Program-made: the position numbers and the translations under genes
In this document: in pieces, positions 26,674 through 53,369 of the stretch
Layout: each line of letters opens with the position of its first letter
How positions within the stretch are numbered: the stretch's first letter is position 1
The notes under the pieces: generated by a model
What the model was told of the DNA's origin: nothing
The model's input: only the letters and a program-made list of their open reading frames with translations
Databases searched by the model: none
Assembly: GCA_019912885.1 (NCBI GenBank)
Contig: JAIOHV010000149.1
Location: forward strand, 33,441-97,440
DNA length: 64,000 bases
Direction of reading: 5' to 3'
Source: a bacterium
GTDB lineage: Bacteria; Lernaellota; Lernaellaia; JACKCT01

Positions 26674-27482
26674 CAACCCCCATCACCCCCGCGTTGCTGA
26701 TCCCGCGCGTCGTCGCCATCGCGAAAGAAGCGGGCGCGTTTCTCGCCTCGCGCGCGGGAATCAGCCGCATCGAGCACAAGGGCGAGATCAACCTCGTCAC
26801 CGAGGCCGACATCGCCTGCGAGCGGCTGTTGCGGGACCGCCTGCTCGCGCTTGTTCCCGGTAGCTCGTTTTTCGCGGAAGAAGAGGGCGGCGAGCGCACC
26901 GGCGAGTGGCAGTGGGTCGTCGATCCGCTCGATGGCACGAACAACTTCGCGCACGGCATCCCGATCTGGTGCGTTTCGATCGCGCTTCGAAACGGCGGCG
27001 AGGTGGTGCTGGGCGTCGTCCACGTGCCGCCGTTTGGCGAGACCTTCACGGCGACCAAGGGCGGCGGCGCGTACTTAAACGGCGAGCCGATCCGCGCGAG
27101 CGCGACAGGGCGTCTGATCGAAAGTGTCGTCGCGACGGGGTTCGCGTATGACAGGCGCACGAACCCGCAAAACAATCTCGATCACTTCCGCGAGATGGCG
27201 CTTGAGGTGCAGGGCCTGCGCCGATGCGGCAGCGCCGCGATCGACCTGTGCTGGCTTGCCGCCGGGCGGTTCGACGGCTTCTGGGAGCTTCGCCTGGGAA
27301 CGTGGGATGTCGACGCGGGCATCCTCATCGTTCGCGAGGCCGGCGGGCGCGTGACGGATTTCGGAGGGGAGCCTCCGGCGGACCCGCCGCCACACCTCCT
27401 GGCCACGAACGGCCATTTGCACGACGAGATGATGTCCGTACTCGCCCGCCATCCCGCCTGGAAAAGAGGGACGCCGCCATGA
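26664..27482 (+). CDS. suhB: Inositol monophosphatase family protein
   Basis: FAEEEGGE...WVVDPLDGTNNFAHGIP...WDVDAG are IMPase signature motifs. Confidence 0.8.
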   Translation: MDVTTPITPALLIPRVVAIAKEAGAFLASRAGISRIEHKGEINLVTEADIACERLLRDRLLALVPGSSFFAEEEGGERTGEWQWVVDPLDGTNNFAHGIPIWCVSIALRNGGEVVLGVVHVPPFGETFTATKGGGAYLNGEPIRASATGRLIESVVATGFAYDRRTNPQNNLDHFREMALEVQGLRRCGSAAIDLCWLAAGRFDGFWELRLGTWDVDAGILIVREAGGRVTDFGGEPPADPPPHLLATNGHLHDEMMSVLARHPAWKRGTPP

Positions 27483-27862
27483 TGGATGTCGTGGTCAAAT
27501 ACGTGGAAGCCTGCCGCGACGACCTCGACGCGGCGCGCGCGCTCATCGACGCGAATCGCGCGTTTTACGCGCCGTTCTTGTGCCACCAGGCGCTCTATAA
27601 GGCGCTGCGTGGGCTGTATCTGGAGCGCCGGAACTCGTACCCGATTGCGGAGCCGCGCCTCGATCGGCTGGCTGACGCCGCCGGCGCGGGCGACCTGGTG
27701 TCCGGCGCGGATCGGGAATTCCTGCGCGAGCTCTCGATGTATCCGGAGGTCGTGGAGCACCCGGTGTATCGCGTCAAGCTGTTGGAACACGCGAAAAATG
27801 CTGGCGAAATCGAGAAAAGGGCGCGAGATCTGGCCGAGCGCGTTGTCGCGGCGCTGGGGTAG
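27479..27862 (+). CDS. HEPN domain protein (standalone, no adjacent nucleotidyltransferase)
   Basis: 127 aa; FLCHQALYKALRGLYL matches the HEPN (PF05168-like) Q-A-x-E/Y-K-x-L-K core. ATG overlaps the suhB stop (ATGA). Confidence 0.55.
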   Translation: MMDVVVKYVEACRDDLDAARALIDANRAFYAPFLCHQALYKALRGLYLERRNSYPIAEPRLDRLADAAGAGDLVSGADREFLRELSMYPEVVEHPVYRVKLLEHAKNAGEIEKRARDLAERVVAALG

Positions 27863-30583: not shown

Positions 30584-31783
30584 ATGAGAGAAGCGCTGAT
30601 TGTTTCCGCCTGCCGGACGGCCGTGGGGCGCGCCAAGCGCGGATCGCTCGTGGATACGCGGCCGGACGACATGGGCGCGGTGGTCATGAGCGAGGCGATC
30701 AAGCGGGCCGGCGTCGATCCGGAAATCGTCGAGGACGCGCACATCGGCTGCGCCATGCCGGAAGGCGAGCAGGGCATGAACGTCGCCCGCATCGCGGTGC
30801 TGCGCGCGGGCTTGCCGCACACGGTTTCCGCGGTGACGGTCAACCGGTTCTGCGCGTCCGGGTTGCAGGCGGTGTGGGGCGCGACCAATGCGATTCAGTC
30901 GGGCTCATGCGACGTGAGCCTCGCCGGCGGTACGGAGTCGATGTCGATGGTGCCGATGGGCGGCAACAAGATCGTGCCGAATCCGTGGCTCGCCGAAAAC
31001 TATCCCGCCGCATACATCAGCATGGGACAGACGGCCGAAAACGTGGCGGCCAAGCGCGGCATCACGCGTGAGGAGCAGGACCGGTTCGCCCTGCGCTCCA
31101 ACGAAAATGCGCTCAAGGCCAACGCGTCAGGTGCGTTCAAGGAGCAGATCGTTCCGCTTAAGACCTTCAAGTACGACGGCCTTGGCGGCGTGAAGGAATT
31201 CACGTTCGACGTCGACGAAGGACCGCGCGAATCCACGCTCGAGGGGCTTTCGTCGCTCAAGCCCGCGTTCGTCAACCCGGCGCTCGCGGACCAGGGATTC
31301 GGTACGGTCACGGCGGGTAACTCGTCGCAGATGTCCGACGGCGCCGCGGCGCTGCTGCTTGTCGAGGGCAAGAAGGCGGCGGCGCTGAACCTTTCGCCGC
31401 TGGCCGCGCTGCGCGGATTTGTCGTCGCGGGACTCGATCCGGAGTACATGGGCGAGGGGCCCGCGTTCGCGATCCCCAAGCTCATCGAACGCTACGGCAA
31501 GCAGTTTGGCATCAAACTCGATGACATCGACGTTTTCGAGATCAACGAGGCGTTCGCCTCGCAGGCCGTGTACAGCGTGAAACACGTCGGCATCGATCCG
31601 GACAAGGTCAATCCGAACGGCGGCGCGATCGCGCTTGGGCATCCGCTCGGTTGCACCGGCGCCAAGCTCTCGACGCAGGTCGTTTACTGGCTTCGCGACA
31701 ACAAGAAAAAGTGGGGCGTCGTCTCGATGTGCATCGGCGGCGGCATGGGCGCCGCGGGCCTGTTCGAGAACCTTACGCTCTAG
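30584..31783 (+). CDS. fadA: Acetyl-CoA C-acyltransferase (3-ketoacyl-CoA thiolase)
   Basis: Thiolase motifs VNRFCASGLQAV (active Cys), GNSSQMSDGAAA, and CIGGGMGAA at the C-terminus. Confidence 0.9.
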   Translation: MREALIVSACRTAVGRAKRGSLVDTRPDDMGAVVMSEAIKRAGVDPEIVEDAHIGCAMPEGEQGMNVARIAVLRAGLPHTVSAVTVNRFCASGLQAVWGATNAIQSGSCDVSLAGGTESMSMVPMGGNKIVPNPWLAENYPAAYISMGQTAENVAAKRGITREEQDRFALRSNENALKANASGAFKEQIVPLKTFKYDGLGGVKEFTFDVDEGPRESTLEGLSSLKPAFVNPALADQGFGTVTAGNSSQMSDGAAALLLVEGKKAAALNLSPLAALRGFVVAGLDPEYMGEGPAFAIPKLIERYGKQFGIKLDDIDVFEINEAFASQAVYSVKHVGIDPDKVNPNGGAIALGHPLGCTGAKLSTQVVYWLRDNKKKWGVVSMCIGGGMGAAGLFENLTL

Positions 31784-31807
31784 TCATTCGACCAGACGCG
31801 AACGCAG

Positions 31808-31846
31808 ACGGCGGCGCCGCAAGGCCCCGCCGTTTTGTTTTCATCG
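31808..31846 (+). terminator. Putative rho-independent terminator after fadA
   Basis: GC-rich dyad GGCGGCGCCGCAAGGCCCCGCC followed by GTTTTGTTTT. Confidence 0.45.
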
Positions 31847-31867
31847 GGAAATTCACGCCGGAAATTG

Positions 31868-33197
31868 GGTTCATCGCGGATTCCCGTACGTCATCATCCG
31901 ACCATCTCGTAGCGTGACTCGTGGAGGGCGAGGATTTTCAGCTTGAAAAACTCGCGGTCGCGGAATCCGTAGGCTTGTCGTTTGAGCGTTTTGATTTTGT
32001 TGTTGGTCCCTTCGAGGGCGGCGGTGGAGATGGGGTGGTCGTACCAGGCGAGGAGGCCGAAGCGATGGTAGGCCAGGGTGCGGGCCATGTCTTTGAGGGT
32101 TTTCACGTCGGAGCCGTCGGCCCATCGCACCCACTGGTCGAGGAAGCGGGCGGCGGCCTTTTTGTCCTGTTGCTCCCAGAACAGTCGCAGTTGCTCTTTC
32201 AGGTAGTACGCCCGGGCCAGCGGCTCATTGAATTTCAGCGCGTCTTCCAGGCGGCGGGCTTCCTGCCGCGTCGGGTTCAGATTCTCGGGGTTTTTCATCA
32301 GGAGCCAACGCACCCCTTTGAGCATTTGCCGGCCCATCGCGTCGGCTTCCCGCGCGAGTTTCCGCCGAAGCTCCGAGAGTTTCTCGTTGAACAGCTTCAC
32401 GACGTGAAAGCGGTCAAAGACGATGGCTGCGCCGGGAAGGTGCGTCATGGCCGAAGCCCAATACGCCGGGGCCAGGTCCGTCGCGACCGCCTTGATCCGC
32501 GCGCCGGCGCGTTTGAGCCTGGCCCAGAAGGGCGCAAGCGCATCGGCGCCTTTCCCGTCCCCGACAAACACCACCGCTCCCGTATCCAGGTCGAGCACCA
32601 CCGTCAGGTACTTGCGTCCCTTCCGCTCGGCGATCTCGTCGATCGCGATCCGCTTGAGCTTCCGCAGCGGAATGCGCCGGAATCGCCGCCGCAGGTAGCG
32701 CTTCTGGATGTCCTTCACCACGTGCCATCCGATGGAAAGGTGACGGGCGACCGACTGGATCGTCATGTGCCGGGAGAGCTCCAGCACGAAGCGCTCGAAG
32801 CTCCGCGTGAAGCGGCGATGCTCATCCGCGAAAGACAGACGGACCTGCCGAACCGCGCCACACGCCCGGCATTCCAACCGAGGTACCGCGTAACGCAGAA
32901 CGATCACCTGCCTCCCGATCGGAGGCGCCAGAAATTCCCGCGGCACATTCCCGCGACGGATCACCGCCCGAGACCCGCACAACGAACATCCAAGACGAAT
33001 CGTCGTCGCCTCCATCTCCATGACGCAGCGACCCCCGTGAAATCGAAGCCCACTTACCCGATAGCCCCACACCCCAAGACCGTGGTACAAGAAATCGTCG
33101 GACATCGCCCACCCCTTTCGGTTCGAGTTTCTGCAACCCGAAAGGTAAGCCTTGTCCGACTTTTTCGCTCTTCACGTACGGGAATCCGCGAAGAACC
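31868..33197 (-). mobile_element. ISL3-family insertion sequence (~1.33 kb) with 24-bp imperfect terminal inverted repeats and 8-bp imperfect target duplication
   Basis: Left IR GGTTCATCGCGGATTCCCGTACGT (31868-31891) pairs with the reverse complement of the right IR ACGTACGGGAATCCGCGAAGAACC (33174-33197), 22/24 matches. The IRs start GGTTC, like the ISL3 GGCTCTTCG consensus. Flanks are GGAAATTG (left) and GGAATTTT (right). Encloses the transposase ORF. Confidence 0.75.
31894..33105 (-). CDS. ISL3 family transposase
   Basis: 403 aa with an N-terminal zinc-finger-like Cys pairs (CSLCGSR...CRACG) and a DDE domain. Strong resemblance to ISL3 transposases. Confidence 0.85.
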   Translation of the reverse strand: MSDDFLYHGLGVWGYRVSGLRFHGGRCVMEMEATTIRLGCSLCGSRAVIRRGNVPREFLAPPIGRQVIVLRYAVPRLECRACGAVRQVRLSFADEHRRFTRSFERFVLELSRHMTIQSVARHLSIGWHVVKDIQKRYLRRRFRRIPLRKLKRIAIDEIAERKGRKYLTVVLDLDTGAVVFVGDGKGADALAPFWARLKRAGARIKAVATDLAPAYWASAMTHLPGAAIVFDRFHVVKLFNEKLSELRRKLAREADAMGRQMLKGVRWLLMKNPENLNPTRQEARRLEDALKFNEPLARAYYLKEQLRLFWEQQDKKAAARFLDQWVRWADGSDVKTLKDMARTLAYHRFGLLAWYDHPISTAALEGTNNKIKTLKRQAYGFRDREFFKLKILALHESRYEMVG

Positions 33198-33246
33198 GGA
33201 ATTTTGCAAGTTTAAGTACCGGAGATATTGCGAGAGGATTTCGCGA

Positions 33247-33654
33247 TTGGACACGCTGTCATTGAAAGAGCGCTCGGAACGCATGGCGCGTGTGCGTGCC
33301 AAGGATACGAAACCGGAAATGCTCGTCCGAAGTCTTGCGCACTCTCTTGGATATCGATACCGTCTCCATGCTCGCGATTTGCCTGGATGTCCTGATCTGG
33401 TTTTCAGACGACGACGAAAAGTTATTTTCGTAAACGGTTGCTTTTGGCATCGCCACGCTCGTTGCGCTCTAGCGCGATTGCCGAAATCCCGACGTGAGTT
33501 TTGGGTGCCCAAGCTCGAAGCCAACAAAGCACGCGACAGGCGTATTAGACGCGCTCTTCAAAGAAACGGTTGGAAGGTATTGACGATTTGGGAATGTCAG
33601 ATTAAGGACATTGAGAAGCTGAGCCGAAATTTACGGAGATTCCTCGATGCGTAG
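33247..33654 (+). CDS. vsr: Very-short-patch-repair (Vsr) endonuclease
   Basis: RSERMARVRAKDTKPE...GCPDLVFRRRRKVIFVNGCFWHRH...GWKVLTIWEC are Vsr family motifs. Start is ambiguous (TTG 33247 or ATG 33283) and lies 50 bp from the IS right end. Overlaps the MTase gene by 8 nt. Confidence 0.8.
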   Translation: MDTLSLKERSERMARVRAKDTKPEMLVRSLAHSLGYRYRLHARDLPGCPDLVFRRRRKVIFVNGCFWHRHARCALARLPKSRREFWVPKLEANKARDRRIRRALQRNGWKVLTIWECQIKDIEKLSRNLRRFLDA

Positions 33655-34825
33655 CGTCGAACTGTTCGCCGGGGCGGGCGGGCTCGCCCTTGGAATGAAA
33701 AACGCCGGATTTAACCACGCGCTACTTGTCGAACGCGACCATAGTGCATGCGAAACATTTCGCCAGAATAGGGCACACTATTCCGGTCAAAAATCAAGGT
33801 GGCCTCTTAGGGAACATGACGTAAGTGAGATCGACTATGCGAAATTGCGGAATATTTATGTCGTTTCCGGCGGCCCTCCATGCCAGCCATTCTCTCTTGG
33901 CGGAAAACATCGCGGCTTTATGGACAAGCGCGACATGTTCCCCGAGGCTGTCAGAGCCATCCGAGAGCTTCGGCCACGGGCGTTCATCTTCGAAAATGTC
34001 AAGGGACTTTTAAGGCAAACATTCGCAAGTTATTTCGAATATATACTTCTACAGCTTACGCATCCAAGTTTCAAAAGGCGAGCTTCCGAGGGCTGGTCGG
34101 AACACCGTGACCGCCTAGAAAAGCATCAAACTTCGCGTCGTGGCCGCTCGGAGTACAATGTCGTATTCCGATTGCTGAACGCCGCCGACTTTGGGGTACC
34201 GCAACGTCGCGAGCGCGTTTTTATTGTCGGATTTCGCTCGGATTTGGGCATCCGATGGAGTTTTCCCGAAGGCACGCATTCCGAAGCGGTGCTTTTTCGA
34301 TCACAATGGATTAGCGGCGAGTATTGGGAGAATCATCGAATACCGGGCAAATTTCGTCCAACCTTAACCGATCGCATTCGAATTCGTGTTGAGAAGCTGT
34401 CGCGCAATCCGGCGCTTGAATTTGGGAAGAAGCCATGGCGCACCGTCCGAGACGCGATACACGATCTGCCAGACCCCGAAAAAACTTCTCGTAACGATTA
34501 TCTAAATCATACATTCGTGCCCGGGGCGCGTATTTACAGAGGGCATACCGGAAGCCCATTCGATGAGCCGGCAAAGACGCTAAAAGCTGGCGATCATGGT
34601 GTACCTGGCGGTGAGAATATGTTAGCTCGCGCGGATGGTTCGGTTCGCTATTTCACGGTTCGCGAGGCGGCACGTTTGCAGACGTTCCCGGACACGTACG
34701 AATTTCCAGTCGTTTGGACAGAATCCATGAGGCAACTTGGAAATGCCGTTCCGGTTGCGTTAAGCGAAACGATAGCAACATCAGTCGCAAAGACCCTCAA
34801 GTCTCAGACAGTCTGCGAAGAGTGA
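33647..34825 (+). CDS. DNA (cytosine-5)-methyltransferase, type II R-M system
   Basis: C5-MTase motifs I (ELFAGAGGL), IV (GGPPCQPFS), VI (ENVKGL), VIII (QRRERVFIVG) and X (GNAVPVAL). Confidence 0.9.
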   Translation: MRSVELFAGAGGLALGMKNAGFNHALLVERDHSACETFRQNRAHYSGQKSRWPLREHDVSEIDYAKLRNIYVVSGGPPCQPFSLGGKHRGFMDKRDMFPEAVRAIRELRPRAFIFENVKGLLRQTFASYFEYILLQLTHPSFKRRASEGWSEHRDRLEKHQTSRRGRSEYNVVFRLLNAADFGVPQRRERVFIVGFRSDLGIRWSFPEGTHSEAVLFRSQWISGEYWENHRIPGKFRPTLTDRIRIRVEKLSRNPALEFGKKPWRTVRDAIHDLPDPEKTSRNDYLNHTFVPGARIYRGHTGSPFDEPAKTLKAGDHGVPGGENMLARADGSVRYFTVREAARLQTFPDTYEFPVVWTESMRQLGNAVPVALSETIATSVAKTLKSQTVCEE

Positions 34826-34833
34826 CGCCTAAA

Positions 34834-35664
34834 ATGTCACGCGAAATTGAAAACATAGCTGCGCAGCTTCGGGACCTTTCGGAACGGCTCGCTGCGGAAG
34901 AAACCACGAGCCTAACCGCGCCGCGCGCCCGTAAAGCTCGCAGGACGATTGCCGCAGCTTATGAAAAAATCCGCATTGTTCTAGACGATCTCGATCCCAT
35001 TAAGCACCCCGGGTACGTATTCAAACCATCGAATCCGGAGGTTGCTGGACGAATTATTGGAGTCGCATTGATCGCTCAACCACGCAAACCCATGGAGGCG
35101 ATCGCGAGATTTTACGGATCCGGTGTCTATGCTCTTTATTATCGCGGTAATTTTCATGCGTATAAACGAATTTCAGGAATGGAACATCCCATTTATATTG
35201 GAAAGGCAGACCCTGCTAAACCAAACAGTGAAACAGCGCTTGAACAGGGTGATCGCCTTGCGAGGCGACTTAAAGAACATAGTAAAAATCTTGTGAAAGT
35301 GAGTACGACGCTCAATCTGAACGATTTCGAATATCGCGCCCTAGTGGTGCAAACTGGCTATCAATCGGCTGCGGAAGAGTATTTGATCAATCTTTTTAAG
35401 CCCATTTGGAATAAAGAGATCGAAATATGTTACGGCTTTGGTAAACACGGGGACTCTCCGGATACGCGCGCAAATTTACGTTCTCCTTGGGACACGCTCC
35501 ACCCCGGACGCGAATGGGCTCACCGAGATCCGAACATGAAGGATGCTCGTTTGCAATCAACTTTGATACAAGCGATTGCGGCACATTTCGCGAAATATCC
35601 ACCGCTGCGGTCGGTTGACGAAATTCTGCGAAGATTTCTCGATGAAATGCGCGAGATTTCTTAG
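34834..35664 (+). CDS. GIY-YIG family type II restriction endonuclease (Eco29kI/NgoMIII-like)
   Basis: GVYALYYRGNFHAYKRISGMEHPIYIGKA...R...EH is a GIY-(x10-11)-YIG core with downstream Arg/Glu. Lies immediately 3' of the C5-MTase, 8-nt gap, same low GC. Confidence 0.6.
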   Translation: MSREIENIAAQLRDLSERLAAEETTSLTAPRARKARRTIAAAYEKIRIVLDDLDPIKHPGYVFKPSNPEVAGRIIGVALIAQPRKPMEAIARFYGSGVYALYYRGNFHAYKRISGMEHPIYIGKADPAKPNSETALEQGDRLARRLKEHSKNLVKVSTTLNLNDFEYRALVVQTGYQSAAEEYLINLFKPIWNKEIEICYGFGKHGDSPDTRANLRSPWDTLHPGREWAHRDPNMKDARLQSTLIQAIAAHFAKYPPLRSVDEILRRFLDEMREIS

Positions 35665-35707
35665 GACCTTATTTTGCAGACGTAAGAAATCAGATCGGCG
35701 ACGTCGC

Positions 35708-35733
35708 GACGGCATGCCGATTTTTTTGGCGGT
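35708..35733 (+). terminator. Rho-independent terminator after the restriction endonuclease gene
   Basis: CGGCATGCCG palindrome followed by TTTTTTT. Confidence 0.5.
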
Positions 35734-35836: not shown

Positions 35837-36919
35837 ATGCGTGTTAATCGGCTGTCGATGTTGGCGCTATGCGTAGCCTTGTTTGCTTGCTCGCTGGGCT
35901 GCGGTTGCGGATGCGGCGATGACGACGACGATTCCTCCGGCGATGACGCGGACGACGACGCAGGCGACGACGATTCGGGCGATGACGATGACAATGCGGG
36001 CGATGACGACGACGCGACGGATGACGATGCGGACGACGACGCTACGCCGGTATTTACATCAATCCCCTCCGGTTCGTTCACCATGGGAAGCCCCGTTTCC
36101 GAAGCGGGACGATACGACAACGAGACGCAACACACCGTGACGCTGACGCGGGGATTCGAGATCGCCGTTCACGAAACGACGCAGGACGAATACGCGGCGC
36201 TGATGACCTGGAATCCGAGCAAGTTCGGTCCCGAATGGCCGTACGACGAATATCCGGAATGCGGGGGCGATTGTCCGGTCGAAAACGTGAGCTGGTTCGA
36301 TGCCCTGTCTTACGCGAACGAGCTTTCGGAGCAGGCCGGTTACGATCCGTGTTTTCTCATCGGCGAAATCGCGTGCGCGGATGGTTCGCTCGTCGGCTCA
36401 AACGCCGCAAGTTGCCGCAACCAGGTTCAGCGTGGCATCGCTGACGCGCAGGTCACTCTGCACGCAGTGACGTCGGTCTACGATTGCGAAGGCTATCGCC
36501 TGCCGACGGAGGCCGAGTGGGAGTACGCGGCGCGGGCGGGCGCCCTTTCGGCCTATCACGACGGCACGGACAGCGACGGAACGCACCTTCTATGCGAGAC
36601 GCCGTTCCCCCTGACGGATATCGCCTGGTATTGCGCGAACGGGAACGACACGACGCACCCCGTCGCGAGCAACACGCCTAACGCCTGGGGGCTGTTCGAC
36701 ACGAGTGGCAACGTCTTTGAATGGACGTGGGACTGGTTCGGCGACTACCCCGGTTCGGTGATCGATCCGGAAGGCGGATGGCCCGCAAACGACAGGGTCA
36801 GCCGCGGAGGTCATTTCGGCGCGGATGCCGCGGCCGTACGTTCCGCGTATCGCGGTGGCATCGGTCCAGGGGCGCAGGATCGTTTTCAGGGATTTCGTCT
36901 CGTTCGAACCGAGCCCTGA
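35837..36919 (+). CDS. Lipoprotein with poly-Asp linker and FGE-sulfatase (SUMF1/formylglycine-generating-enzyme family) domain
   Basis: Signal peptide plus lipobox MRVNRLSMLALCVALFACSLGCGCGCGDDDDDSSGDDADDDAGDDDSGDDDDNAGDDDDATDDDADDDA. Then FTMGSPVSEAGRYDNETQHTVTLTRGFEI...HETTQDEY...NVFEWTWDW of the FGE-sulfatase fold. RBS GGAGGAG upstream. Confidence 0.75.
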   Translation: MRVNRLSMLALCVALFACSLGCGCGCGDDDDDSSGDDADDDAGDDDSGDDDDNAGDDDDATDDDADDDATPVFTSIPSGSFTMGSPVSEAGRYDNETQHTVTLTRGFEIAVHETTQDEYAALMTWNPSKFGPEWPYDEYPECGGDCPVENVSWFDALSYANELSEQAGYDPCFLIGEIACADGSLVGSNAASCRNQVQRGIADAQVTLHAVTSVYDCEGYRLPTEAEWEYAARAGALSAYHDGTDSDGTHLLCETPFPLTDIAWYCANGNDTTHPVASNTPNAWGLFDTSGNVFEWTWDWFGDYPGSVIDPEGGWPANDRVSRGGHFGADAAAVRSAYRGGIGPGAQDRFQGFRLVRTEP

Positions 36920-45567: not shown

Positions 45568-47292
45568 TTAGCAAGCCCCACTTGATTGCGGCACCAGGAT
45601 GAGCGCGTCGCCGCTGTTCATCCACACGGTCGCCGGCGCGGCGGAAGCGTCGCCGTTAGCATCAAGCGCGCACCAACCGCTTCCGACGCTGTAATCCACG
45701 CCGCCGCGCTGGCCGTCCATGCGCACGACCACCTCGGCGGTCGTGCCGTGCAGGCCCTCGAAGCGCCGGCGGAAGATGCCGTCGTGCTGCTCCCACGCCG
45801 GGCCGGCCGGTTCGCCGATATTCTTTTCGAAGATCCCGAACCACACCGAGTCCTTCAGCGGCTCGTACGGATTCCACGCGGGTTTGATGACGAATACATC
45901 GCGGCCGTTGCGGAACATGTAATACGCGGCGAGATAAAACATCAGCTCGTCAGCGTCCGGGTTCGAACTGCCGCCGTTATAGAACGTCTCGAGCGCGAGG
46001 AAGCTGCCCTCGGCCGCGAGCTTCTCCGACGTGTCGATGATTGAACGCATGCGATCCGGCGTGTTGAGATTACCCCAGTCCGGGTGATGCAACGCCGACT
46101 CGCACCACGGGCCGACGTCCTTGCTCGCCAGGTCCGCGACCATATCGACCGAGCCGTCCCACGAGCAATACGCGCCGCTGTTGAAGACGAAGCGCGCCTC
46201 GGAGTGCGTCTTTTGGACTTCGAATCGGATGTGGGCCATCAGGTCGCGCACGCCGCCAAGCCACCAGTCGTTCATCTTGTCCCAGTTCGCCTCGACATCG
46301 TTTGGGATCTCCAGGACGTCATTCGGCGTCAGGAAGTTCGGCAGGTAATAGCTGTCCTCTTCCTCGATCGGGCCGCCGATGTTGTCGTAGCCGACACCGC
46401 CGAAGCCTTCGACCTCCACGGCGCGTTTTGCGCGCCACGCGTTGTAATCCTTGCCGCAGCCGCTGGTGATGTCGATGAGCCAGACGTATTCGTCCCAGAC
46501 GAGCGTCTTGATGCGCGCGTCCGTCATGGTCGCGGCGCTGCCCTGGTAACCCTTTTGCCAGAGCTCCACCCAGCATCCGTGTGCGTGCCAGCGCGCCTCG
46601 ATCAGGCCGTCGTTTTTCGCATGGAGAAAACAGCTCTCGCCGTCTCCGTGCTGCGGGTAGGCGTTTAGAAATTCGCCGAACTCCGCCACGCGCGCGTCGA
46701 ACGTCTGGTCCTTCTCGCCGATGATGGGATCGGCGCAGCTTCCGCTGCTCTCGTTCGTAAGGAACAAATGCGCGAGGTCCCACTTGAGCCAGGACCCCTG
46801 GGGATTCGCGTTACGCAGCGCTTCCCAGGCCATCTCGGTGCCTTCGTCGTTGTAATTGATGATGGCCAGATCGACGTTCTCGGCCGCCCAGGCGGTGTCT
46901 TCCTGGAAGATTTCGCCTTCGTAGCCGCCGAGGTCGTAGTAGTAGTGGAAATGCACGATGCCGTAGTTCAGGGCGTCGGCGTTTTCCTCCCAGGGCGGAA
47001 TCACGTCGTCATCGTCGTCGCCGAAATCGTCGTCATCCGGGACATCGTCGTCATCGCCGCTGTCGTCGTCATCGCCGGCATCGTCATCGTTTCCCTGCGA
47101 AGCGTCATCGTCTCCGGAGGTGGTGTCGTCATCCGCGGGGGAATCGTGGCCGGGGTCAACGCCGGCGGAATCGTTTCCCGATCCGTCGGAGCCCCGTGAC
47201 GCGGACGATTCCTCTCCGGAAAAGCAGCTGGTTGTTGCGAGGAGAAAAACGGCAAGAAGCGCGACGGGGACGAACAAGGACAGGCGTTGCAT
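45568..47292 (-). CDS. Lipoprotein with ~60-aa poly-Asp linker and C-terminal hydrolase-like (possible TIM-barrel glycoside-hydrolase-like) domain
   Basis: MQRLSLFVPVALLAVFLLATTSC lipobox, then DDDTTSGDDDASQGNDDDAGDDDDSGDDDDVPDDDDFGDDDDD, then a ~470-aa domain without a confident family match. Confidence 0.5.
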   Translation of the reverse strand: MQRLSLFVPVALLAVFLLATTSCFSGEESSASRGSDGSGNDSAGVDPGHDSPADDDTTSGDDDASQGNDDDAGDDDDSGDDDDVPDDDDFGDDDDDVIPPWEENADALNYGIVHFHYYYDLGGYEGEIFQEDTAWAAENVDLAIINYNDEGTEMAWEALRNANPQGSWLKWDLAHLFLTNESSGSCADPIIGEKDQTFDARVAEFGEFLNAYPQHGDGESCFLHAKNDGLIEARWHAHGCWVELWQKGYQGSAATMTDARIKTLVWDEYVWLIDITSGCGKDYNAWRAKRAVEVEGFGGVGYDNIGGPIEEEDSYYLPNFLTPNDVLEIPNDVEANWDKMNDWWLGGVRDLMAHIRFEVQKTHSEARFVFNSGAYCSWDGSVDMVADLASKDVGPWCESALHHPDWGNLNTPDRMRSIIDTSEKLAAEGSFLALETFYNGGSSNPDADELMFYLAAYYMFRNGRDVFVIKPAWNPYEPLKDSVWFGIFEKNIGEPAGPAWEQHDGIFRRRFEGLHGTTAEVVVRMDGQRGGVDYSVGSGWCALDANGDASAAPATVWMNSGDALILVPQSSGAC

Positions 47293-47646
47293 GGGCTTCC
47301 TTCGTGCCGGGATCAAACACCGCGCGTCGCTCGCGGCCCTGCGCCCGCAGGTTGGGATTCCAATCTATTCTAATTAGCGATTCTCGCCCCGAAGGGCAAA
47401 CAAGCCAACATAGCATAAATCGACATCGCGCGCGAAATATTTAGCGGAATTCGGCGAATTTGCGTTAGCAGGGGGGCATATTTATGCCGCGATCGCAGTA
47501 CGAGTCCTTTTCGAAACGTTATACCGGGCCGCCGAATCGTACATTCCTACCGGGATGATACTTTCTCCCGCCGGCCGGATCGGCTGCGATTGCGCGCCTT
47601 CGGCGGCGCGCCTATATTCAGGTTCGCCACAAAATGGAGTTCGGTT

Positions 47647-51380: not shown

Positions 51381-53369
51381 TTGAACCACCTTGTCCATCG
51401 ATTTCTCAATGTCTGGCTCGCCCTGACCGCGATGGCCGTCGTCGTCGCGCTAGGACTCGCCCTGCGCGAGGCTCGCGCGCAGGGCTACGTGGGCAAGGCG
51501 CTTGATAACACGTACAAATTCACGATCAACCGAGCCGTGCGCGAGTCCCGCGCCGCCGGCGCCGCGGCCGCCTTTTTCATCGCCGCGGCGTACGTGCTTG
51601 CGCGGCGGCGTTCCGTCACGCGCCGGCGCTTCGCGCGGTCGCTCGCGATTGGCGGCGGAATCGCCCTGTTGTTGCTGTTTGTCGCGGCCTTCCTGTTTCA
51701 ACGGGAACTCGCGGCCGGCCACAACAAGCTCTACGGGCAATATGTCGATATCGAAACCTTTGCCTTTCGCGCGCTGTTTTCCTCCGTATTGACCGTTCCG
51801 CCGCCCGGAAGGTTCATTTTGATCTTCATTTTTGGAGCGGTGCTCGTGGGGCTCGCCTTTGCCGCGACGGCCGCGGAAAAGCGGTTATTCGCAAATGGCG
51901 GCGAGTCGGCGTTCGGCGCGGCGCATCCGGCGATCTGGATCGCCTCGGCGATCGTGCTGGCCGTCGCGTCGATCGTCGGCGCGGCCAACAAACCGGCGGC
52001 GGCGCGGCACGATCCGCCGGACATCATCCTCATCAGCATCGACACGCTGCGCGCCGATCATCTGCCGACGTACGGCTACGAGCGCGACACCTCGCCCGCG
52101 CTTGGCGAACTGGCCGCGAACGGCGTCGTTGTCGAACGCCATATCGCGCACGCGCCGTGGACGCTTCCGTCCCACATGTCGATGTTCACCGGCGTCATTC
52201 CGAGCCGTCACGGCGCGACGCAGCCCATCGCCGCCATCGCCGACGACATGACGACGTTTCCGGAACTGCTCAAGAACGCCGGATACGCGACCGGCGGTTT
52301 CGCGACGAACATCCTTCTTGGCGCAAGCTACGGCTTTGCGAGCGCGTTCGATACGTACGCGCTGAATCCGAACTGGAACGCGGGTGCCGTCGCGGGCGGC
52401 GCGGCCTCGTGGTTCGTGAAGCAGCGCAAACCCGCGTTCCTGTTTTTGCACATCTTCGATCCACACTTTCCGTACGATCCGCCGCCCGCGTTTCGCGGCC
52501 GGTTCGGACCCGAGGACGAAGCCGTGGCGCGCGCGCAGAAATTGGACTTCTACGACTTTTTCCGCTTCATGGAAGGCGAGGGTGCATCGCGCGTGGCGGC
52601 CGTGCGGGATCGATACGACGAGGAAATCCTGGCGACGGATGCCGCACTCCGAACCTTTTTCGAGAGGCTCGCGGAGCACCGCCGCCTGGGCGATGCGCTC
52701 ATCATCGTCACCTCCGACCACGGGGAGGAATTCGGCGAGCACGGCATGTGGGGCCACGGCCTCACGCTCTACGCCGAAATGCTGAATGTGCCGCTCATCG
52801 TCAAGATGCCGCGCGGCGCGTGCGCCGGGTCGCGCCTTCGCGATCGGCTCGTGCCGCAAAAGGCGCTTTTCGATCTCATCGTTTCGGCATCGGCCACGCC
52901 GCTTTCGGATGCACGCTGGTCGCTGTGCGACGAATCCGGCGCGCCCGCGTCCGTCGCGGCGCTTGCCGTCGACGATCCCGTCATCGCGGAAGACTCGATG
53001 CTCGGCCCGTTGCGCTACGCGGCGAACGGCCGGGAACGCAAACTCATCGAGCCGACAAGCGTCCACGTCGAGGGCTTTGTCGATTTCGAAACCGGCTTTG
53101 AGCTATACGATTTCGCCGCCGATGCCCTCGAAAAAAACAATCTTCTTGCCGGCGAGGAAAACGTCGTGGACGCGATTCGAACGAAGGCGCCGGCGCTGCA
53201 TCAGGAAATTTGCCGCACGCGCCTGGCGTACGCCGGAAGCACCGAAGGCGGCGCGGTGACGCTCGACGTGCAAACGCGCGAGCGCTTGAAGAGCCTTGGC
53301 TATCTCACGGGCGAATCGTCGGGCGGCGACGCGGCCTTCGACGAATTCTGCGCGCCGGTGGCGCCGTGA
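51381..53369 (+). CDS. Membrane-anchored sulfatase-fold transferase (phosphoethanolamine-transferase/EptA-like, alkaline-phosphatase superfamily)
   Basis: Five N-terminal TM helices, then ISIDTLRADHLP...APWTLPSHMSMFTG with Thr in the nucleophile position, as in EptA/LtaS. 4-nt overlap with the downstream GT2. Confidence 0.6.
   Translation: MNHLVHRFLNVWLALTAMAVVVALGLALREARAQGYVGKALDNTYKFTINRAVRESRAAGAAAAFFIAAAYVLARRRSVTRRRFARSLAIGGGIALLLLFVAAFLFQRELAAGHNKLYGQYVDIETFAFRALFSSVLTVPPPGRFILIFIFGAVLVGLAFAATAAEKRLFANGGESAFGAAHPAIWIASAIVLAVASIVGAANKPAAARHDPPDIILISIDTLRADHLPTYGYERDTSPALGELAANGVVVERHIAHAPWTLPSHMSMFTGVIPSRHGATQPIAAIADDMTTFPELLKNAGYATGGFATNILLGASYGFASAFDTYALNPNWNAGAVAGGAASWFVKQRKPAFLFLHIFDPHFPYDPPPAFRGRFGPEDEAVARAQKLDFYDFFRFMEGEGASRVAAVRDRYDEEILATDAALRTFFERLAEHRRLGDALIIVTSDHGEEFGEHGMWGHGLTLYAEMLNVPLIVKMPRGACAGSRLRDRLVPQKALFDLIVSASATPLSDARWSLCDESGAPASVAALAVDDPVIAEDSMLGPLRYAANGRERKLIEPTSVHVEGFVDFETGFELYDFAADALEKNNLLAGEENVVDAIRTKAPALHQEICRTRLAYAGSTEGGAVTLDVQTRERLKSLGYLTGESSGGDAAFDEFCAPVAP

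What the first reader, a model, noticed from the sequence alone, without database searches (positions are those of the whole stretch)
33247..35733. Low-GC (~50%) horizontally acquired R-M island: vsr, C5-methyltransferase and GIY-YIG endonuclease, inserted between fadA and downstream genes
Three co-oriented, overlapping or tightly spaced genes have GC about 18 points below the flanks. They are bounded on the left by the IS and on the right by a clean terminator. Vsr is placed upstream of the cognate C5-MTase, the reverse of the E. coli dcm-vsr order. The restriction enzyme is of the rare GIY-YIG class rather than PD-(D/E)XK. In B. subtilis fadN-fadA is followed by fadE, which is absent here, so the island may have displaced part of the beta-oxidation operon.
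Basis: partly seen in the sequence, partly recalled or inferred. Interest (0 to 1): 0.55.

Follow-up and report, generated by a model that had tools for sequence, protein, structure and literature searches.

The report
Acquired Eco29kI-type restriction-modification cassette with Vsr
This is an ordinary, intact-looking three-gene bacterial defence cassette (a repair nuclease, a DNA methylase and a DNA-cutting enzyme) picked up from another organism; its kind is already known and widespread.

Summary
Window 33247-35664 carries three co-oriented genes: vsr (TTG start at 33247, ends 33654), a C5 cytosine methyltransferase (33647-34825) and an Eco29kI-family GIY-YIG restriction endonuclease (34834-35664). 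A hairpin with a T7 run (35692-35727) closes the unit. GC is 50.8% against 64.1% for the host DNA, a gap of 13 points, not 18. GC3 is 44-51% against 72-86%. No other 2.5-kb stretch of the window falls below 57% GC.

An ISL3 element (31868-33197) lies 50 nt upstream of vsr. The active-site residues checked are conserved in all three proteins. The methylase is 47% identical over its full length, and 43% in the target-recognition domain, to the methylase of an Eco29kI system. The predicted site is therefore CCGCGG.

The vsr-M-R order is the standard layout of a large cassette family. The endonuclease has more than 2000 homologues, and the same order was found in four other contexts. This endonuclease is already named in NCBI.

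The idea that fadE was displaced has no positive support. fadA has its own terminator, no fadE remnant exists, and the two nearest relatives lack fadE there. More distant relatives often do have it. This is a new member of a known kind and of low interest.

The parts
31806..31843 (+). Intrinsic-terminator-like hairpin and T-run directly after the fadA stop (31783). It marks the end of the fadN-fadA unit, upstream of the IS and the island.
   Evidence: Inverted repeat arms 31808-31818 / 31823-31833 (I13). Folds as a 9+3 bp hairpin followed by UUUUGUUUU.
31860..31867 (.). Left flanking 8-mer GGAAATTG. Probable imperfect target-site duplication of the IS.
   Evidence: Read from the sequence. Matches the right 8-mer GGAATTTT at 6 of 8 positions.
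31868..33197 (-). ISL3-family insertion sequence, 1330 bp, 62.1% GC (host-like). Transposase gene at 31894-33105 on the - strand.
   Evidence: NF033550 ISL3 transposase 318 bits (cutoff 180); PF01610 1.4e-72. Terminal inverted repeats 31868-31891 / 33174-33197, 24 nt, 96%. Single copy in the window. Short-read contigs from the same samples break inside it.
33198..33205 (.). Right flanking 8-mer GGAATTTT.
33198..35727 (+). Low-GC island as a whole (50.8% GC).
33247..33654 (+). vsr: very-short-patch repair endonuclease, 135 aa, TTG start preceded by GAGAGGA.
   Evidence: Pfam and TIGR00632 hits. Aligns with E. coli Vsr 1cw0 at 7e-28. The equivalents of D51, F67, W68, H69, D97 and of the zinc ligands I recall for E. 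coli Vsr (C66, H71, C73, C117) are kept. The H64 equivalent is Asn, as in 15 of 149 diverse Vsr representatives.
33647..34825 (+). C5 cytosine DNA methyltransferase, 392 aa. Its ATG overlaps the vsr stop (ATGCGTAG).
   Evidence: PF00145 2e-63. PADLOC MTase_II model PDLC03307 matched across residues 1-390 at 426 bits. Motifs read in the sequence: FAGAGG 7-12, PCQ with Cys79, ENV 116-118, QRRER 186-190, GNAVP 365-369. 47% identical over the full length and 43% in the target-recognition domain (197-333) to the methylase of an Eco29kI system.
34834..35664 (+). Eco29kI-family GIY-YIG Type II restriction endonuclease, 276 aa, starting 8 nt after the M stop.
   Evidence: PF09517 122 bits (cutoff 30.8). 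PDB 3mx1 1.5e-25. The six Eco29kI active-site residues Y49, Y76, R104, H108, E142, N154 (PMC1952068) align with Y99, Y121, R145, H149, E181, N193. The identical protein is in NCBI as 'Eco29kI family restriction endonuclease [bacterium]'.
35692..35727 (+). Terminator-like hairpin (ATCGGC...GCCGAT) followed by T7. It closes the three-gene unit.

Best explanation
A self-contained Type IIP restriction-modification operon with a Vsr repair gene (order V-M-R) was acquired horizontally from a lower-GC donor. It sits in the spacer between the fadN-fadA unit and an FGE-sulfatase-like lipoprotein gene.

Inferred mechanism:
- The methyltransferase puts 5-methylcytosine on its target, predicted to be CCGCGG, throughout the host genome (66 sites in the 61 kb of host DNA here).
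- The GIY-YIG endonuclease cuts unmethylated copies of the same site (CCGC/GG) in incoming phage or plasmid DNA.
- Vsr nicks next to the T of T:G mismatches left by deamination of 5-methylcytosine. This starts very-short-patch repair and offsets the mutagenic cost of methylation.
- The three genes are probably transcribed together, given the 8-nt overlap, the 8-nt gap and the single terminator. M lies ahead of R.

The ISL3 element 50 nt upstream of vsr is a separate, later insertion of host-like GC.

Shown: gene identities, intact reading frames, conserved catalytic residues, atypical composition, and conservation of the cassette and its order elsewhere. Inferred: the specificity, the enzymatic activities, co-transcription, and the direction and timing of the transfer.
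For: - Family assignments and conserved catalytic residues.
- Composition: 50.8% against 64.1% GC, GC3 0.44-0.51 against 0.72-0.86, the only such stretch in 64 kb.
- Low GC is not intrinsic to the cassette. Homologous cassettes in other hosts have 61-64% GC.
- The flanks are housekeeping genes: DAO, PLD-type synthase, inositol monophosphatase, fadN and fadA on one side; DAHP synthase, prephenate dehydrogenase, amidase and Lnt on the other.
- The cassette is conserved as a unit in unrelated contexts, with 66-71% identical R and 71% identical M. The neighbours are often defence genes: Piwi+SIR2, FRG+GmrSD, DEAD/MZB.
- Specificity:
  - M is 47% identical, with no break across the target-recognition domain, to the methylase next to an R that is 149/152 identical to crystallised Eco29kI.
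  - Every characterised family member named in the papers read cuts CCGC/GG: Eco29kI, Cfr42I (only 32% identical to Eco29kI) and DraR1. MraI and NgoMIII, also specific for CCGC/GG, were assigned to the family by sequence analysis (PMC2241918; PMC4081073; PMC10855626).
- The IS came later. The 8-mers flanking it match at 6 of 8 positions (my binomial estimate puts the chance of 6 or more matches at about 0.004), so its two flanks were contiguous before insertion. The right flank is island DNA.
Against: - No activity or methylation data exist.
- No promoter was recognised upstream of vsr. The IS has cut off anything further upstream, so the operon could be silent.
- No closely related genome with an empty site could be found, so the acquisition rests on composition and patchy distribution only.
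- No flanking direct repeats of 8 nt or more, no integrase and no tRNA explain how it inserted.
- CCGCGG is under-represented in the host DNA (66 observed, 100 expected, z -3.4). Most palindromic hexamers are too, so this says little about specificity.
- The small RHH gene found upstream of several related cassettes is absent here.
Confidence: 0.85

Rival explanations
1. The cassette belongs to the Eco29kI family but recognises a site other than CCGCGG.
For: R is only about 39% identical to Eco29kI over the core and has a longer N-terminal part: residue 89 here aligns with residue 60 of the tagged chain. The target-recognition domain of M is 43% identical, not near-identical. The 279-aa subfamily has no characterised member that I found.
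Against: Cfr42I is 32% identical to Eco29kI and still cuts CCGC/GG. The M alignment runs through the target-recognition domain without large gaps, and blocks such as GHTGS, KTLKAG.HGVPGGENM and VRYFT are conserved. The 310 REBASE systems assembled in that survey were all CCGCGG-recognising m5C systems; they were collected by that recognition site, so this is only weak evidence.
Confidence: 0.2
2. The cassette is silent or decaying. The IS insertion separated it from its promoter or regulator, and R, or the whole operon, is not expressed.
For: The IS end lies only 50 nt before the vsr start. No sigma-70-like promoter was found on the + strand in that gap. Related cassettes often have a small RHH gene upstream that is missing here.
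Against: All three reading frames are full length compared with relatives: 135, 392 and 276 aa against 123-137, 390-392 and 279 aa. The active-site residues checked are conserved, apart from the recurrent H64-to-Asn variant in Vsr. The promoter scan covers only one promoter type. L003 and L171 also lack the RHH gene. The near-matching 8-mers indicate a simple insertion with no adjacent deletion.
Confidence: 0.15
3. One reading: the arrival of the island removed fadE from a fadN-fadA-fadE operon.
For: In 54 of 80 genome loci with a FadA homologue (52-63% identical), a FadE-type acyl-CoA dehydrogenase lies within 5 kb downstream on the same strand. In 30 of these it is directly adjacent. The window has none anywhere.
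Against: A GC-rich hairpin with a T-run follows fadA immediately, on the host side of the IS and the island. No FadE-like fragment is detectable even at E=10. The two closest loci (L007 at 63%, L012 at 61%) have a ferredoxin plus methyltransferase, or ribosomal protein genes, after fadA and no FadE within reach. An insertion does not by itself delete neighbouring genes.
Confidence: 0.1
4. The ISL3 element delivered the cassette as part of a composite or one-ended transposon.
For: The IS abuts the island on the left.
Against: There is only one IS copy in the window and none on the right side. IS GC (62%, GC3 0.79) is host-like and unlike the island. The flanking 8-mers fit a simple insertion into sequence that already contained the vsr leader. 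Related cassettes elsewhere carry no such IS.
Confidence: 0.05

Closest known systems
Eco29kI R-M system (E. coli plasmid pECO29; the near-identical system on Salmonella Enteritidis plasmid pC, NC_003457)
   Same: GIY-YIG endonuclease of family PF09517 with all six active-site residues, paired with a C5-MTase that is 47% identical over its full length. Predicted site CCGCGG.
   Different: The gene order there is R then M, partly overlapping, with no vsr (PMC3113576 abstract). Here the order is vsr-M-R. R here is 276 aa against 214 aa, with a longer N-terminal part. The system here is chromosomal, not plasmid-borne.
The (RHH)-Vsr-M-R cassettes of Acidobacteriota and other soil metagenome contigs (L003-L006, L172/L173)
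   Same: Same three genes in the same order with the same tight spacing. R is 66-69% identical in those loci (up to 71% among the listed homologues), M 71% and Vsr 62-74%. DNA similarity of 65-68% is confined to the coding part.
   Different: Those copies have 61-63% GC, above their flanks, whereas this one has 51%, below its flanks. Several have a small RHH gene upstream and sit in defence islands. This one has neither and sits between housekeeping genes.
Xanthomonas plasmid RHH-M-R systems (for example NZ_CP022265)
   Same: M-then-R order. M is 52% and R 47% identical.
   Different: They have no vsr and have an RHH gene instead. They are plasmid-borne.
E. coli dcm-vsr
   Same: A C5-MTase coupled to a Vsr endonuclease through overlapping genes. 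Vsr is homologous (1cw0, 7e-28).
   Different: The order is dcm then vsr (established knowledge). There is no restriction enzyme. The site is CCWGG.

Membership tests
Eco29kI-family GIY-YIG Type II restriction endonuclease (PF09517) | Match to the family profile above the curated cutoff | tested here: met
   122.3 bits against a cutoff of 30.8, covering profile positions 2-160 of 164. Eco29kI crystal-structure chains match at 1.5e-25.
Eco29kI-family GIY-YIG Type II restriction endonuclease (PF09517) | Active-site residues Y49, Y76, R104, H108, E142, N154 of Eco29kI (PMC1952068) | tested here: met
   They align with Y99, Y121, R145, H149, E181 and N193 in the alignment.
Eco29kI-family GIY-YIG Type II restriction endonuclease (PF09517) | Adjacent cognate C5-MTase homologous to M.Eco29kI, including the target-recognition domain | tested here: met
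   47% identity overall and 43% across residues 197-333.
Eco29kI-family GIY-YIG Type II restriction endonuclease (PF09517) | Cleavage of CCGC/GG, blocked by the cognate methylation | not testable with these tools
   Needs enzyme assays or methylome data.
C5 cytosine DNA methyltransferase (PF00145) | Conserved motifs I (FxGxG), IV (PCQ, catalytic Cys), VI (ENV), VIII (QRR) and X (GNAV) | tested here: met
   FAGAGG 7-12, PPCQ with C79, ENV 116-118, QRRER 186-190 and GNAVP 365-369, read in the translation. PF00145 2e-63. The motif definitions come from established knowledge of the family.
Vsr very-short-patch repair endonuclease (TIGR00632 / PF03852) | Profile match above cutoff, plus catalytic D51, H69 and D97 and intercalating F67 and W68 (PMC2677866) | tested here: met
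   142 bits against a cutoff of 97.9. The residues are kept in the alignment with 1cw0. The H64 equivalent is Asn, which also occurs in 15 of 149 diverse representatives.
Vsr very-short-patch repair endonuclease (TIGR00632 / PF03852) | Nicking 5' of T in a T:G mismatch within the methylase's sequence context | not testable with these tools
   Needs a biochemical assay.
ISL3-family insertion sequence | ISL3 transposase, terminal inverted repeats and an 8-bp target duplication | tested here: inconclusive
   Transposase and 24-nt repeats are met. The flanking 8-mers match at only 6 of 8 positions. The 8-bp duplication rule is from my own knowledge of the family.
Horizontally acquired genomic island | Composition atypical for the host | tested here: met
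   4.4 sd below the window mean. GC3 is 21-42 points lower than in the flanking genes.
Horizontally acquired genomic island | Empty site in a close relative | not testable with these tools
   The closest FadA in 185,579 species genomes is 63% identical. The closest relative of the downstream gene in the metagenome collection is 39% identical. Exact look-ups return only contigs from the same two samples.
Horizontally acquired genomic island | Integration signature (flanking direct repeats, integrase or a tRNA target) | tested here: not met
   No shared word of 8 nt or more between the two junctions. No tRNA in the window. No integrase in the island.
fadN-fadA-fadE operon (B. subtilis type) | A FadE-type acyl-CoA dehydrogenase downstream of fadA | tested here: not met
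   No FadE-like sequence anywhere in the window. A terminator follows fadA directly.

The most novel reading that the evidence does not exclude
The 276-279-aa subfamily with an extended N-terminus, always in M-then-R order and usually led by vsr, is a functionally distinct branch of the Eco29kI family. It might differ in oligomeric state, regulation or specificity. This low-GC copy would then record a recent jump of that cassette from a donor lineage not yet sampled, later cut off from its upstream region by an IS. Nothing measured here excludes this, but nothing points to it either.
Probability: 0.1. Interest if true: 0.3.

Novelty: new member of a known kind. Interest (0 to 1): 0.12.

Why it matters
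It matters little beyond annotation. It gives a clean example of a compact V-M-R defence cassette dropped between housekeeping genes in an uncultured, poorly sampled, high-GC bacterium. It also predicts that this genome carries 5-methylcytosine at CCGCGG, roughly once per kilobase, which can be checked in methylome data. Finally, it shows that GIY-YIG restriction enzymes of the Eco29kI type are common in environmental genomes, even though few have been characterised.

Tried and rejected
- **Empty site or same-site copies in relatives.**
  - The FadA scan of genome contigs gave a best hit of only 63% identity.
  - The metagenome scan with the downstream FGE-sulfatase-like protein gave a best hit of 39%.
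  - Exact-sequence look-ups of R, FadA and the FGE protein returned only short contigs from the same two runs, SRR15662000 and SRR15662001, which break at the IS.
  - The test could not be done.
- **RHH controller remnant.** tblastn with four upstream proteins from related cassettes found nothing credible near the island.
- **Attachment-site repeats at the island ends.** None of 8 nt or more.
- **tRNA or known RNA families in the window.** None.
- **CCGCGG avoidance as a specificity test.** It was the second most depleted palindromic hexamer (ratio 0.66), but palindromes are depleted in general, so this is not diagnostic.
- **Possible inactivation of Vsr by the H64-to-Asn change.** Rejected, because Asn is a recurrent natural variant.
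- **IS-mediated delivery.** Rejected; see the rival explanations.
- **The Eco29kI crystal-structure paper (PMC2955809) is not held.** Base-contacting residues could therefore not be compared.
- **The generic terminator scan missed both hairpins.** They were checked by folding instead. The energies of the whole 91-nt fragments are not significantly better than shuffles (z -1.1 and -0.8), so the terminator calls rest on the stem-plus-T-run shape.
Full report
**What is in the sequence**

Between the thiolase gene fadA (30584-31783) and an FGE-sulfatase-like lipoprotein gene (35837-36919) there are two inserted elements.

The first is an ISL3-family insertion sequence at 31868-33197.
- Its transposase gene (31894-33105, minus strand) scores 318 bits on NF033550, cutoff 180.
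- It has 24-nt terminal inverted repeats that are 96% complementary.
- Its GC is 62.1% (GC3 0.79), like the host.

The second is a block of three co-oriented genes.
- vsr, 33247-33654: TTG start with GAGAGGA about 8 nt upstream; TIGR00632 142 bits against a cutoff of 98.
- A C5 cytosine methyltransferase, 33647-34825: PF00145, 2e-63.
- An Eco29kI-family endonuclease, 34834-35664: PF09517, 122 bits against a cutoff of 31.
- vsr and M overlap by 8 nt (ATGCGTAG). M and R are 8 nt apart.
- A hairpin at 35692-35723 runs into seven T's ending at 35727 and closes the block.

**Composition**

- The block 33198-35727 has 50.8% GC. The rest of the window, without the IS, has 64.1%.
- Among all 2.5-kb stretches the mean is 63.6% and the sd 2.9%. 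This is the minimum, and only stretches overlapping it fall below 57%.
- Third-position GC is 0.50, 0.51 and 0.44 for the three genes, against 0.85, 0.86 and 0.72 for fadN, fadA and the downstream gene.
- The drop is real and large.
- Low GC is not a property of the cassette itself. Homologous cassettes elsewhere have 61-64% GC, which is higher than their own flanks.
- Together with the housekeeping character of both flanks, this fits horizontal acquisition from a donor of lower GC.

**Are the genes intact?**

- R aligns with crystallised Eco29kI at 1.5e-25.
- The six active-site residues defined for Eco29kI are Y49, Y76, R104, H108, E142 and N154 (PMC1952068). They correspond to Y99, Y121, R145, H149, E181 and N193 here.
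- M carries the standard motifs, including catalytic Cys79 in PPCQ.
- Vsr aligns with E. coli Vsr (1cw0, 7e-28). It keeps D51, F67, W68, H69, D97 and the equivalents of the zinc ligands I recall for E. coli Vsr (residue roles from PMC2677866 and PMC4081097).
- The equivalent of H64 is Asn, whereas four cassette relatives have His. Among 149 diverse Vsr representatives the position is His in 129 and Asn in 15. It is therefore a normal variant and not a sign of decay.
- Lengths (135, 392 and 276 aa) match those of relatives.

**Predicted specificity**

- The R gene on Salmonella plasmid pC is 149/152 identical to the Eco29kI crystal sequence. One of the three differences is the E142Q change in the crystallised protein.
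- The methylase next to that gene is 47% identical to the window's M from end to end, and 43% identical across the target-recognition domain, residues 197-333.
- Every characterised enzyme of this family named in the papers I read cuts CCGC/GG: Eco29kI, Cfr42I (only 32% identical to Eco29kI) and DraR1. MraI and NgoMIII, also CCGC/GG-specific, were assigned to the family by sequence analysis.
- I therefore predict CCGCGG, with roughly 0.7 confidence.
- The host part of the window holds 66 such sites against 100 expected from a maximal-order Markov model (ratio 0.66, z -3.4). That makes it the second most depleted palindromic hexamer. Palindromes are depleted in general, so this is not diagnostic.

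**Is the arrangement unusual?**

No.
- R has more than 2000 homologues at E<=1e-5.
- The identical protein is already in NCBI as 'Eco29kI family restriction endonuclease [bacterium]'.
- The nearest relatives are 66-71% identical and mostly 279 aa. Those with a source name are mostly Acidobacteriota.
- In four distinct contexts (L003, L004, L005/L006, L172/L173) the order is vsr-M-R with the same tight spacing. A small RHH gene often precedes it, and defence genes such as Piwi+SIR2, FRG+GmrSD and DEAD/MZB are often next to it.
- One locus has M-R only.
- Xanthomonas plasmids have RHH-M-R.
- A Sphingomonas plasmid has vsr upstream of a fragmentary R, with no M annotated between them.
- The Eco29kI prototype has R-M.
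- A published REBASE survey of CCGCGG systems already notes variants that carry Vsr and controller elements (PMC10855626).
- GIY-YIG enzymes are a small class among characterised restriction enzymes (PMC4081073), but they are plainly common in sequence databases.

**The IS and the left boundary**

- The 8-mers flanking the IS, GGAAATTG and GGAATTTT, match at 6 of 8 positions.
- This fits a simple insertion into a once-continuous AT-rich spacer. The right part of that spacer is the vsr leader.
- It leaves only 50 nt upstream of vsr, and no sigma-70-type promoter was recognised there. How the operon is transcribed is open.
- No RHH remnant, no junction repeats, no tRNA and no integrase were found. 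The insertion mechanism of the cassette is unknown.

**The fadE idea**

- A GC-rich hairpin with a T-run follows fadA at 31806-31843, on the host side of both insertions.
- No FadE-like sequence exists anywhere in the window, even at E=10.
- The two closest FadA loci in 185,579 species genomes (63% and 61% identical) are followed by a ferredoxin and a methyltransferase, or by ribosomal protein genes.
- Linkage is nevertheless common further away. A FadE-type dehydrogenase lies within 5 kb downstream in 54 of 80 loci, and directly adjacent in 30.
- Displacement therefore has no positive support, but it cannot be excluded without a close relative. None is available in the collections searched.

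**Verdict**

The finding is real and correctly identified. It is an ordinary horizontally acquired Type II R-M cassette with Vsr, a new and uncharacterised member of a known and widespread kind. Interest is low.

Noticed in passing
window 31868-33197: ISL3 insertion sequence with host-like GC. It is single-copy in the window, but independent short-read contigs from the same samples end inside it, which suggests several copies in the genome. Its flanking 8-mers match at only 6 of 8 positions.
   Followed up: partly
window 27503-27832 (within ORF 27224-27862, + strand): A small HEPN-domain ORF (PF05168, 6e-7) lies between the inositol-monophosphatase-like gene and fadN. No partner nucleotidyltransferase was looked for.
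   Followed up: no
window 35837-36919: The FGE-sulfatase-like protein has a lipoprotein-like N-terminus followed by a long Asp-rich low-complexity linker (CGCGCGDDDDD...). A sulfatase-family gene lies at 51381-53369.
   Followed up: no
L004 6865-9915; L005/L006 6879-9936: In acidobacterial contigs the homologous vsr-M-R cassette is immediately followed by a 652-654-aa Piwi-domain protein and a 361-aa SIR2_2 protein. A large DEAD/Helicase_C/MZB protein is nearby. This looks like a defence island.
   Followed up: no
L003 6871-8684; L172 6837-8673: In two other contexts the cassette is followed by an FRG-domain gene and a GmrSD_N gene. The latter is a modification-dependent nuclease family.
   Followed up: no
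L004 4261-4416; L005 4213-4416; L088 1901-2185: A small ribbon-helix-helix gene lies directly upstream of many M-then-R cassettes of this family and may be a controller protein. It is absent from the window, L003 and L171, and has no PADLOC match.
   Followed up: partly
L003-L006 cassettes: In those hosts the cassette is 61-63% GC, which is 3-9 points above its flanks (largest in L004). The cassette is compositionally foreign there too, but in the opposite direction.
   Followed up: partly
window, whole (host part): Palindromic hexamers are broadly under-represented. GTCGAC has 17 against 43 expected, ACGCGT 20 against 40, GGATCC 10 against 22, and CTAG 9 against 25. This hints at past or present pressure from other restriction systems.
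   Followed up: no
window 1-64000: There are no tRNA genes and no Rfam family at gathering threshold in 64 kb. The large ORFs 10-2280 (756 aa, GC3 only 0.65) and 45568-47316 (582 aa) have no Pfam match.
   Followed up: no
window 33247-33654, residue 63 of Vsr: Asn replaces the His that corresponds to E. coli Vsr H64, whereas four cassette relatives keep His. Asn occurs in 15 of 149 diverse Vsr representatives.
   Followed up: yes
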